The notes below the pieces were generated by a model. That model saw only the letters and a list, made by a program, of their open reading frames with translations, was not told the DNA's origin and did no database searches. From contig CAVSJE010000004.1 in assembly GCA_963728115.1 (NCBI GenBank), forward strand, positions 30,982 through 94,981: a stretch of 64,000 bases of DNA. The letters are read 5' to 3'. The DNA is from an uncultured Gemmatimonadaceae bacterium (GTDB lineage: Bacteria; Gemmatimonadota; Gemmatimonadetes; Gemmatimonadales; Gemmatimonadaceae). Below are positions 60,674 to 61,690 of the stretch, one piece after another (the stretch's first letter is position 1; the number at the start of each line of letters is the position of its first letter). The position numbers were made by a program, and so were the translations under genes.

Positions 60674-61387
60674 TCAGCGCCTGAGCGCGAACTCGAACCG
60701 CTGCTGTACCACCTGGCGCACCCGGTGGCCACGCACCTCCGCCGGCCGATAGCGCGAGTGGCGCAGCACATCGCGCACCGCGTCGGCAAACAGCGGGTGC
60801 GTGGCCGCGATCACGTGAATCGACGCCGGTTCGGCACGGCCCGTCGTGTCGACGATGAACTGGACGTCCACGTGCCCTTCGAGATGCGCCGCGCGCATCG
60901 TCTCCGGGTACACCGGCAGCGGGTTGCCGGCGTTCGGCACCGCCGCGCGGTCCACCGTCGACACGTCCCAGGCGCCGTTCACCGGTCCCGACGAGAGACC
61001 CGACCCGGGCGTTTCGCCCCCGGCATGGGGCGGCGCCGGCTTCGTGTCGTACCAGTGCTGGTCGACCACGATCGTCGCCGGATCGATCGTCGGCAGCGTC
61101 GTCGGCACCGTGGTCGGCGCGATCATCCGATCGGGAATTCTCGGCATCGGAACCTCAGGCGGGGTCGGGAGCGACGGTGTGGGCGCCGGATCCGCCGGCG
61201 CCGGCGCCGGAGGGGTAACCACGTACACCAACGGCGTCGCCGGCACCACGGGGCGCGGCCGTGGGGTGGCGCGCGCCGTCATCACCACGGCGAGACCGAT
61301 GATCGACGTGTGCAGCGCAATGCTCACCAGCGTCCCGCCCACCCGGCGCTGCCGCGCGCCCCGCGTTTCGATGAGTGTGCCCAGCAT
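60674..61387 (-). CDS. tonB: Energy transducer TonB-family protein
   Basis: It has an N-terminal anchor, a Pro-rich linker (PAPAPADPAPTPSLPTPPEVP) and a C-terminal TonB domain (YPETMRAAHLEGHVDVQFIVDTTGR). GGGAGGA lies upstream of the ATG. Confidence 0.8.
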   Translation of the reverse strand: MLGTLIETRGARQRRVGGTLVSIALHTSIIGLAVVMTARATPRPRPVVPATPLVYVVTPPAPAPADPAPTPSLPTPPEVPMPRIPDRMIAPTTVPTTLPTIDPATIVVDQHWYDTKPAPPHAGGETPGSGLSSGPVNGAWDVSTVDRAAVPNAGNPLPVYPETMRAAHLEGHVDVQFIVDTTGRAEPASIHVIAATHPLFADAVRDVLRHSRYRPAEVRGHRVRQVVQQRFEFALRR

Positions 61388-61397
61388 GATTCCTCCC

Positions 61398-61418
61398 GTG
61401 TGAATCCCTCATTCACAC
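61398..61418. promoter_or_regulatory. Perfect 8-bp inverted repeat abutting the tonB Shine-Dalgarno sequence
   Basis: GTGTGAAT-ccctc-ATTCACAC lies 11-31 nt upstream of the tonB ATG. Confidence 0.35.
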
Positions 61419-61453
61419 GATTGCGCATCCGGCCGCGCAGTGCATGGAGAAAC

Positions 61454-61530
61454 GATGACCGGGCGATGACGTGATGCTGAACGGGCGGTGAAGTTCCGCT
61501 GAACCACGGATGACGATTCGATGACGGCCG
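61454..61530. repeat. Seven tandem 11-bp units with the conserved core G-N-T-G-A-(C/A)-(C/G)
   Basis: The units start at 61454, 61465, 61476, 61487, 61498, 61509 and 61520. They read GATGACCGGGC, GATGACGTGAT, GCTGAACGGGC, GGTGAAGTTCC, GCTGAACCACG, GATGACGATTC and GATGACGGCCG. Confidence 0.7.
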
Positions 61531-61545
61531 GGAACCCGTGCGGCG

Positions 61546-61555
61546 CCCCCCCCCC
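61546..61555. repeat. Homopolymeric C10 tract in the intergenic region
   Basis: I read cggcg-CCCCCCCCCC-ggcct directly from the sequence. Confidence 0.8.
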
Positions 61556-61690
61556 GGCCTCGTGTCGTGCCCACGCCCCGGACCGGACCGCCCGACTGGC
61601 CACGGCCGTGCCCCGGCCCCATACTCTTGGCATCGCAAACCCAGCCGCTCCGGCACGATCATCCCGCGCAACCTCACGAGGTCGGTTCCC

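What the first reader, a model, noticed from the sequence alone, without database searches (positions are those of the whole stretch)
61454..61530. Seven-unit array of 11-bp phased repeats (G-N-T-G-A-M-S) in the tonB / BNR-protein intergenic region
The units start exactly every 11 nt, at 61454, 61465, 61476, 61487, 61498, 61509 and 61520. They read GATGACC, GATGACG, GCTGAAC, GGTGAAG, GCTGAAC, GATGACG and GATGACG, each followed by 4 variable bases. The arrangement of subtypes is symmetric (A A B b B A A). On the opposite strand, which is the tonB sense, the cores read GTCATC and GTTCAGC/CTTCACC. That resembles the 11-nt direct-repeat units bound by PhoB/PhoP-type (OmpR-family) regulators, whose core is GTTCACC-like in high-GC bacteria. 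One repeat per helical turn over seven turns would place all sites on one face of the DNA. That is characteristic of cooperative regulator arrays or iteron-like elements, and it is not explained by any coding feature.
Basis: partly seen in the sequence, partly recalled or inferred. Interest (0 to 1): 0.6.

Follow-up and report, generated by a model that had tools for sequence, protein, structure and literature searches.

The report
Regulator docking array before tonB
The seven 11-base repeats are real and conserved; they are most likely a row of docking sites for a two-component response regulator that switches on a spare TonB motor gene in soil Gemmatimonadota, which is a known kind of switch in an undescribed regulon.

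Summary
Seven units start exactly every 11 nt at 61454-61530. This is the only chain of three or more in the 4.4-Mb genome, and the TGA core (TCA on the tonB strand) is invariant in 68 of 68 units across ten genomes of the genus.

The array is not a one-off. A five-unit array precedes a standalone exbD in the same genome. In other genera of the family, 21 of 33 non-perfect arrays examined lie directly upstream of TonB_C or ExbD genes, always in the same orientation. The units keep a fixed register with a -10-like hexamer (11 of 13 TAnnnT at one phase, p about 2e-10). No -35 consensus is present. This is the layout of OmpR/PhoB/SARP-type activator sites.

The Pho reading is not supported, because the pst operon carries no such units and no wider regulon appears.

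The best candidate binder is an OmpR-type response regulator. It is encoded with its kinase directly upstream of the main tonB-exbB-exbD-exbD cluster. That synteny holds across the order, and the main tonB promoter carries three related units in the same register.

The parts
61454..61530 (-). Seven 11-bp direct-repeat units. On the tonB sense strand they read CCGTCATCGAA TCGTCATCCGT GGTTCAGCGGA ACTTCACCGCC CGTTCAGCATC ACGTCATCGCC CGGTCATCGTT. The T of each TCA lies at about -114 to -48 if AATCGT is the -10.
   Evidence: unique chain. (TGA invariant in 68/68 units of 10 genomes while spacers vary). (register).
61443..61453 (-). An eighth, degenerate unit in phase (sense TCTCCATGCAC, with CCA in place of TCA) at about -37. 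The same CCAT sits at the same position in the main tonB promoter and in the tonB promoter of genus g41.
   Evidence: (alignment A2), plus my count in the report.
61423..61442 (-). Spacer of about two unit lengths without a TCA core, lying between the array and the -10-like hexamer. Its sequence is poorly conserved in the genus.
61417..61422 (-). A -10-like hexamer, AATCGT (CATCGT in relatives). It lies 36 nt (3 + 3x11) downstream of the T of the proximal TCA and 29 nt before the ATG.
   Evidence: 19 of 20 promoters have xAnnnT at this phase, and 11 of 13 strict TAnnnT fall at phase 3 (p=2.3e-10); no sigma-70 -35/-10 consensus pair.
61398..61418 (.). Perfect 8-bp inverted repeat GTGTGAAT-5-ATTCACAC. 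It overlaps the -10-like hexamer and the expected start site. The arms are not well kept in relatives.
61391..61397 (-). Shine-Dalgarno sequence GGGAGGA of tonB.
   Evidence: conserved.
60674..61387 (-). Standalone (orphan) tonB paralog of 237 aa with a TonB_C domain. It is the gene served by the array.
   Evidence: Pfam; orthologs at 53-75% identity only in part of the genus, and 38% identity to the main TonB on C3.

Best explanation
The array is a cis-regulatory operator. It is a row of seven to eight helically phased docking sites (core TCA on the tonB strand, consensus ssyTCAYss) for a winged-helix regulator of the OmpR/PhoB type. That regulator would bind head-to-tail along one face of the DNA and activate an otherwise -35-less promoter of an orphan tonB gene.

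Shown: the same element, in the same orientation and in a fixed register with a -10-like hexamer, precedes orphan tonB and exbD genes in many genera of the family.

Inferred: the binder is the OmpR-type response regulator encoded with its histidine kinase directly upstream of the main tonB-exbB-exbD-exbD cluster (G000 C3:520119-520790). On an unknown envelope or nutrient signal, this regulator would raise the supply of TonB and ExbD motor parts. The number of units would set the threshold and steepness of the response.

Sub-odds: operator for a winged-helix activator, about 0.8; this particular regulator, about 0.45.
For: (1) Non-random and conserved. It is the only chain in the genome. The TGA core is invariant in 68/68 units of ten genomes while the spacers drift. 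The non-coding stretch is 82-87% identical where the TonB protein is 69-75% identical.

(2) A second array of 5 units lies 46 nt before a standalone ExbD gene, with cores invariant in four orthologous loci.

(3) Family-wide pattern. The pattern hits 121/301 genomes, against few for the reversed control. Of 33 non-perfect arrays examined, 21 are directly upstream of TonB-like or ExbD-like genes, always with TCA on the sense strand. Pfam confirmed 6/6 TonB_C and 4/4 ExbD.

(4) Register. 11 of 13 strict TAnnnT hexamers between the first unit and the ATG in 20 promoters lie at phase 3 relative to the T of TCA (p=2.3e-10), and 19/20 promoters have xAnnnT there. The proximal TCA falls at -26..-24 in exbD and in tonB of genus g41. 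This is the same register as the afs box DRdown (-29..-19, PMC10936776) and, from my memory, as the E. coli pho box 10 bp from the -10. No -35 consensus is present.

(5) Not an RNA structure: z=+0.84, and no Rfam hit.

(6) Candidate regulator. The cluster RR-HK-tonB-exbB-exbD-exbD was confirmed by Pfam. HK-tonB-exbB synteny is kept in 10/10 relatives, and the RR is kept upstream in three further genomes. The RR is a single-copy ortholog at 65-93% identity in 135/138 genomes of the order and is absent at that level from 63 other genomes of the phylum. The HK-tonB spacer carries conserved units CTAAC-N6-TTCAT-N6-TTAAT (TGTCAT/TGTAAT in sister families), then CCAT, then TAG(C/G)TT, in the same phase as the orphan promoter.
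Against: The link to the neighbouring regulator rests on gene neighbourhood and motif likeness only. The genome holds 9 other Trans_reg_C genes and at least 6 SARP-like ones.

Long arrays are confined to family f1, although the regulator is present throughout the order, so the regulator's presence does not predict long arrays.

In this genome's tonB promoter the units stop at -48/-37 instead of reaching -26, which is a less classical position.

Twelve of the 33 arrays examined are not next to tonB or exbD.
Confidence: 0.6

Rival explanations
1. Pho box array: PhoB binds the units and induces this tonB under phosphate starvation.
For: The units resemble the E. coli CTGTCAT (from memory) and the Streptomyces G(G/T)TCAY direct-repeat units (PMC2275107). 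The distal pair reads CCGTCATCGAATCGTCATC. A PhoB-like regulator exists at C6:~427000-427720 (TIGR02154, 245 bits, below the cut-off).
Against: The upstream region of the porin-pstSCABB locus (C3:325336-325490) has no 11-spaced TCA/TGA. Two-unit sites show no genome-wide excess. Only tonB and exbD carry arrays.
Confidence: 0.1
2. SARP-type box: one of the membrane-anchored wHTH+BTAD (+TPR) regulators that are abundant in this phylum binds the units.
For: SARPs bind repeats 11 or 22 bp apart at a fixed distance from the -10, and the afsS -35 region reads TTCAGC (PMC10936776), like the units GTTCAGC here. G000 has at least 6 such genes. One of them (C13:427795-430122) has a 3-unit site 8 nt upstream that shares the 12-mer GAAACGATGACC with the tonB array. 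Earlier notes e1-4061694 and e1-4624555 report SARP-type boxes in this phylum.
Against: That C13 gene has no close ortholog in the other array-bearing genomes (best 36-40% identity). Three-unit chains are no more frequent than at control periods. TGACG pairs at 11 bp are not enriched. No SARP gene is linked to the tonB/exbD loci.
Confidence: 0.12
3. Operator for a non-winged-helix protein that polymerises on tandem repeats (for example a ribbon-helix-helix protein as in ParR/parC of plasmid R1, or a repressor or silencer), or iterons.
For: Arrays of up to 10-11 tandem 11-bp units (G271, G318) are longer than most response-regulator operators. ParR binds 11-bp repeats (from memory).
Against: There are no partition, replication or RHH genes nearby. 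The phase lock to a -10-like hexamer and the absence of a -35 fit activation by RNA polymerase recruitment. The site is chromosomal and conserved with tonB/exbD across genera.
Confidence: 0.08
4. No dedicated protein is involved. The phased TG/CA steps make a bendable or curved upstream element, or the sequence acts as RNA in the tonB leader.
For: Only the trinucleotide is strictly invariant. TG/CA steps are flexible (general knowledge).
Against: The positions flanking the core are biased: never A after TCA, and S at +2 and +3 (n=111). The -10-like hexamer lies downstream of the array, so the array should not be transcribed. There is no stable fold and no Rfam match.
Confidence: 0.05

Closest known systems
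PHO boxes of Streptomyces coelicolor PhoP (11-nt direct repeat units; PMC2275107)
   Same: Strict 11-nt units with a 6-7 nt conserved core containing TCA plus a variable spacer. Operators hold 2 to 6-8 units, including poorly conserved 'extension' units. Binding spreads cooperatively from core units. Sites lie next to or over the -35.
   Different: Here the conserved core is shorter (TCAY). The targets are tonB/exbD, not phosphate genes. The pst operon lacks the units. Arrays reach 10-11 units.
E. coli PhoB pho box (CTGTCAT-N4-CTGTCAT; from memory; seven units at ugp are cited in PMC2275107)
   Same: The half-site TGTCAT is nearly identical to CGTCAT here and to TGTCAT/TGTAAT in the main tonB promoter of sister families. 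It uses the same register to the -10, and the -35 is replaced.
   Different: There is no link to the Pho regulon in this genome.
afs box of AfsR and other SARP boxes (PMC10936776)
   Same: 11-bp direct repeats that overlap the -35. The downstream repeat is at -29..-19, which is the same register as the proximal unit of the exbD promoter. The repeat contains TTCAGC.
   Different: SARP boxes have 2-3 repeats and usually sit beside the SARP gene. No conserved SARP gene partners these arrays.
CusR/CopR-type heavy-metal response regulators and their boxes (family assignment from NCBIfam; box sequence from memory only)
   Same: The candidate regulator scores best against this subfamily (237 bits, below the 279 cut-off). 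These regulators recognise TGTCAT/TGACA-type half-sites.
   Different: The regulator is linked to tonB-exbBD, not to metal efflux genes. Membership of the equivalog is not met.
VgrRS (ColRS) of Xanthomonas campestris (PMC5231390)
   Same: It is an OmpR-family two-component system that couples an envelope signal (iron) to TonB-dependent uptake genes.
   Different: VgrR targets a TonB-dependent receptor and hundreds of genes. Here the apparent targets are the motor genes themselves, and the signal is unknown.

Membership tests
OmpR/PhoB-family operator (tandem direct-repeat array) | Direct repeats with a 10-11 bp centre-to-centre spacing | tested here: met
   The spacing is exactly 11 nt over 7 (8) units. 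The same period is seen in 20 further promoters.
OmpR/PhoB-family operator (tandem direct-repeat array) | A conserved short core with a variable spacer, kept by selection | tested here: met
   TGA is invariant in 68/68 units across 10 genomes while positions 8-11 vary. The logo from 111 units across genera is ssyTCAYss.
OmpR/PhoB-family operator (tandem direct-repeat array) | A fixed register with the -10 element, with the -35 weak or replaced | tested here: met
   11/13 TAnnnT hexamers lie at phase 3, p=2.3e-10. No -35/-10 consensus pair is present. The -10 itself is inferred, not mapped.
OmpR/PhoB-family operator (tandem direct-repeat array) | Bound by a response regulator of that family | not testable with these tools
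   This needs EMSA, footprinting or DAP-seq. Candidate genes exist.
Pho regulon (Pho box) | The same box upstream of the pstS operon and other phosphate genes of the genome | tested here: not met
   The pst upstream region lacks phased TCA/TGA. A genome scan for two units plus the -10 finds only exbD.
Pho regulon (Pho box) | Unit sequence like known PhoB/PhoP units | tested here: inconclusive
   CGTCATC and GTTCAGC resemble CTGTCAT and GTTCACC. Only the TCA is conserved, and the phylum's own pst sites look like TTAC (note e1-2331830).
SARP box | Repeats 11/22 bp apart, with the 3' repeat at a fixed short distance from the -10 | tested here: met
   The register equals the afs box DRdown in the exbD and g41 tonB promoters. 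In this window the nearest good unit is two turns further upstream.
SARP box | A cognate SARP (wHTH+BTAD) regulator conserved with the sites | tested here: not met
   The only SARP-like gene with a look-alike site has no ortholog in the other array-bearing genomes.
Iterons / partition-site repeats | Adjacent replication or partition genes, on a plasmid or at an origin | tested here: not met
   The neighbours are GH3, tonB and a BNR/sortilin gene. The locus is chromosomal and syntenic in relatives.
Structured RNA element | A stable or covarying fold, or an Rfam match | tested here: not met
   z=+0.84 against shuffles. Only chance-level Rfam hits elsewhere.

The most novel reading that the evidence does not exclude
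An order-wide, dedicated two-component system is built into the tonB-exbB-exbD operon of these Gemmatimonadota and controls how many TonB/ExbD motor parts the cell makes. In one family, spare tonB and exbD copies have acquired expandable rows of 5-11 regulator sites that act as a rheostat. The many perfect 11-nt tandem repeats carrying the same TCA core in these genomes would be the raw material from which such rows grow by slippage.
Probability: 0.3. Interest if true: 0.6.

Novelty: new member of a known kind. Interest (0 to 1): 0.42.

Why it matters
Gemmatimonadota are abundant in soil but have almost no experimental genetics. This finding gives a concrete, testable regulatory circuit: a defined DNA element, a small regulon (tonB and exbD paralogs plus the main tonB cluster) and a named candidate sensor-regulator pair.

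It also suggests that in this lineage the TonB energy-transducing motor is governed by a two-component activator. In the model systems it is governed by a Fur-type repressor.

The phased-array signature (T(C/A)A every 11 nt, with the -10 at phase 3) can be used to annotate promoters in hundreds of uncultured genomes.

Tried and rejected
(1) TRF found nothing at the site because the units are too degenerate.

(2) An Rfam scan and RNA folding gave no RNA element.

(3) Pho reading. I located pst and read its promoter, which has no units. A TTAC-N7-TTAC scan gave 8 genome hits, 2 of them in pst, but one of those is a hairpin, so the Pho-box identity stays uncertain.

(4) SARP-like C13 gene as the regulator. 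Its domains were confirmed, but it has no orthologs in array-bearing relatives, so I dropped it as the general binder.

(5) Motif leads from earlier notes. TGACG x2 and TTCAS x2 are not enriched at 11 bp in this genome.

(6) The three-unit chains at C6:418022, C5:148959 and C18:17575 are in coding sequence or in the opposite orientation. Their number equals that at control periods.

(7) Co-occurrence of long arrays with the candidate regulator across the phylum. The regulator is order-wide but long arrays occur only in family f1, so the test is uninformative.

(9) A literature look-up of the CusR box sequence did not return the sequence, so that resemblance rests on memory.

(10) My first alignment mixed strands, because genome-search loci are not oriented. 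I redid it.

(11) A first version of the phase statistic had an indexing error. I recomputed it.

Full report
OBSERVATION. The degenerate heptamer GNTGAMS occurs 17,918 times on the two strands of the 4.42-Mb genome (69% G+C). This is nevertheless the only place with three or more copies 11 nt apart, and no period from 6 to 19 nt gives anything similar. Reduced to the bare core TGA, the genome has just two long period-11 chains: this one and a five-unit one on contig C10. TRF missed the array because the units are only about 60% alike. One more unit length towards tonB (61443-61453, CATGGAG) continues the phase with TGG in place of TGA.

SURROUNDINGS. The minus-strand gene 60674-61387 encodes a 237-aa protein with a TonB_C domain. 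The plus-strand gene starting at GTG 61691 is a secreted BNR/sortilin-type protein. A GH3 glycosidase converges on tonB from the other side. This tonB is therefore monocistronic and has no exbB or exbD beside it.

CONSERVATION. The stretch from the tonB start codon to the far end of the array is 78-87% identical in nine other genomes of the genus. The TonB protein itself is only 53-75% identical. Across 68 units in ten genomes the TGA is invariant. Position 1 is mostly G, position 2 is never T, position 6 is A or C, and positions 8-11 drift. The part of the spacer next to the BNR gene is conserved separately. In G011 it lies 1.1 kb away from the array, with an extra membrane-protein ORF between them. 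The array therefore travels with tonB.

A SECOND ARRAY, AND MANY MORE. The C10 chain (five units) lies 46 nt upstream of a standalone 137-aa ExbD gene, again with TCA on the gene's sense strand. In the four genomes that have this exbD ortholog, all five cores are kept while the spacers change.

A pattern search for five TGA cores 11 nt apart in 121 genomes of the family hit 23 genomes, against 6 for the reversed control. A six-core pattern with up to two mismatches hit 121 of 301 genomes, again far above the control. The hits fall into two classes.

- Perfect 11-nt tandem repeats with no consistent gene context.
- Degenerate arrays like the one here.

Of 33 degenerate arrays whose context I read, 21 lie directly upstream of a gene that starts M..LLES...RR (TonB-like) or ..(I/P)N(V/I)TP(F/M)(L/I)DV(L/M)LVL.. 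(ExbD-like), always in the same orientation. Pfam confirmed TonB_C for 6 of 6 and ExbD for 4 of 4 that I submitted. None of these loci has an ExbB or the kinase described below within 1.5 kb, so they are orphan copies. The arrays have 4 to 11 units. The pooled logo of 111 units is ssyTCAYssrs, with no A ever following TCA.

PROMOTER GEOMETRY. I wrote each sense strand in 11-mers with T(C/A)A at positions 4-6. A -10-like hexamer then falls at positions 7-12 of a later 11-mer. Examples are TAACGT, TATGGT, TATCCT and TATTCT before exbD, CAACGT before the tonB of G062, and AATCGT/CATCGT before the tonB of this genus.

I tested this on all 20 promoters. Of the 13 strict TAnnnT hexamers found anywhere between the first unit and the start codon, 11 lie at that one phase of eleven (binomial p=2.3e-10). 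In addition, 19 of 20 promoters have xAnnnT there, typically 27-30 nt before the ATG. The phase had been noticed on three promoter families before the other promoters were examined.

If the hexamer is -12..-7, the cores sit at -26, -37, -48 and so on. In exbD and in the tonB of genus g41 the array reaches -26. In this window the good units run from -48 to -114, with CCA at -37. There is no -35/-10 consensus pair.

This is the geometry of activators of the OmpR/PhoB fold. Streptomyces PhoP binds 11-nt units G(G/T)TCAYYYR(G/C)G in operators of two to six or eight units, with weak 'extension' units filled cooperatively (PMC2275107). SARP regulators bind repeats 11 or 22 bp apart; the afs box repeat lies at -29..-19 and the -35 reads TTCAGC (PMC10936776). 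By these published coordinates the proximal exbD unit GCGTTCATTCC occupies the same place.

Because the hexamer lies downstream of the array, the array should not be transcribed. In line with that, the sense strand has no unusual fold (z=+0.84) and there is no Rfam match.

IS IT A PHO BOX? The units look like Pho boxes, so I tested the idea. The pst locus (porin, pstS, pstC, pstA and two pstB genes) is at C3:325491-331227. Its 155-nt upstream region has no TCA or TGA 11 nt apart. It has CTTTACC-cgcc-CGTTACG instead. TTAC-N7-TTAC occurs only 8 times in the genome, twice in pst, though the second copy may be a hairpin. Genome-wide, two-unit sites of the tonB type are no more common at 11 bp than at control spacings. 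The composite 'two units plus -10' finds only exbD. The detectable regulon in this genome is tonB plus exbD, which is not what a global phosphate regulator would give.

WHO BINDS? The genome has ten Trans_reg_C genes and at least six membrane-anchored SARP-like genes.

One SARP-like gene (C13:427795-430122) has a three-unit site 8 nt upstream that shares the 12-mer GAAACGATGACC with the tonB array. However, it has no ortholog in the other array-bearing genomes, and three-unit chains are no more frequent than at control periods.

A better candidate emerged from the main TonB locus. On C3 the minus strand reads response regulator (Response_reg + Trans_reg_C), histidine kinase (HAMP-HisKA-HATPase), tonB, exbB, exbD, exbD. 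The evidence for this candidate is as follows.

- Kinase-tonB-exbB synteny is kept in all ten relatives whose main tonB locus I held, including two other genera. The regulator sits upstream of the kinase in the three further genomes I checked.
- The regulator is single-copy and 65-93% identical in 135 of 138 genomes of the order. It has no counterpart at that level in 63 other genomes of the phylum. Comparing its coordinates with the TonB coordinates shows the same adjacency in the two sister families.
- Its best NCBIfam matches are the CopR/CusR-type subfamily, below the cut-off.
- The 100-nt spacer between kinase and tonB is strongly conserved. It contains CTAAC-N6-TTCAT-N6-TTAAT, then (C)CAT one turn later, then TAG(C/G)TT. 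In the sister families the same boxes read CTAATC, CTGTCATC and TTGTAATC. By my count the T's fall at -70, -59, -48 and -37 relative to TAGGTT, which is the same phase (3 mod 11) and the same CCAT at -37 as in the orphan tonB promoter of this window.

The orphan promoter thus looks like an expanded copy of the main one, and the neighbouring two-component system is the natural candidate regulator of both. This step is inference from neighbourhood and motif likeness. Nothing here shows binding.

LIMITS. The following points remain open.

- The -10, the start site and the sign of regulation are inferred.
- Long arrays are confined to this family although the regulator is order-wide.
- Twelve of the 33 arrays are next to other genes (a lipoprotein, a Tat-signal protein and others). 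These may be further regulon members or chance hits.

VERDICT. The PhoB/phosphate part and the iteron alternative are not supported. The element is a new member of a known kind of operator, and it defines a previously undescribed TonB/ExbD regulon in a little-studied phylum.

Noticed in passing
Related genomes, e.g. G104:C5:170668-170736, G129:C2:875794-875884, G238:C26:15378-15479, G092:C5:71396-71475, G212:C1:4667570-4667682: Perfect or near-perfect tandem repeats with an 11-nt unit that contains TCA/TGA are common in this family. They are far more common than repeats matching the reversed control pattern. They lie between genes, often starting at a stop codon, with no consistent neighbour. 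Whether they are young regulator-site arrays or plain minisatellites is open.
   Followed up: partly
G000:C13:430133-430165 (L036:3634-3666): Three phased units TTTGAGGAAAC GATGACCAGCC GTTGAGCCGGC lie 8 nt upstream of a 775-aa wHTH+BTAD(+TPR) SARP-like gene. They share the 12-mer GAAACGATGACC with the tonB array. The gene has no close ortholog in the genus.
   Followed up: partly
window 61398-61418: A perfect 8-bp inverted repeat GTGTGAAT-5-ATTCACAC overlaps the -10-like hexamer and the expected tonB start site. In relatives the arms differ in a way that gives C-A mismatches on the tonB strand, so it may be a DNA operator or a coincidence.
   Followed up: partly
window 61546-61555: A run of ten C lies 16 nt beyond the array. 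The region is not conserved in relatives.
   Followed up: no
window 61591-61690: The 100 nt before the BNR/sortilin gene are conserved on their own (GACTGGCC ... CCATACTCT). In G003 and G011 they occur away from the array, so that gene has its own promoter region.
   Followed up: partly
G000:C3:325384-325398 and 327660-327674: TTAC-N7-TTAC occurs 8 times in the genome, twice in the pst locus. The first (CTTTACCCGCCCGTTACG, 13 nt before CATCGT) is a candidate Pho box. The second sits in a GGCCG...CGGCC hairpin between pstS and pstC.
   Followed up: partly
G000:C8:71430 (minus strand); G000:C3:207314 and C21:10890: There are four tandem copies of GCTGACGC (period 8), and a 14-nt-period triple (GGTGAGCGCCGCGG CATGAAGGAACGTG GATGAAGGAACGAA) present in two identical copies on two contigs.
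   Followed up: no
L007:433-1479 (G011:C7): In G011 a 348-aa multi-pass membrane protein ORF is inserted between the tonB array and the BNR gene's upstream region.
   Followed up: no
G415:C2:418985-419064, 108725-108793, 1523613-1523684 (L156): A class-level relative without a close ortholog of the candidate regulator has three arrays of TCATCGTT-type units. The one examined lies near an integrase gene, not near tonB/exbD.
   Followed up: partly
G000:C6:416379-420270: A three-unit TGA chain (TCTGATCGGGG CGTGACACGGG CGTGACGTCCC) sits between a PhoU-like/PiT phosphate transporter pair and polyphosphate kinase, in the opposite orientation to the tonB case. It is probably chance.
   Followed up: no
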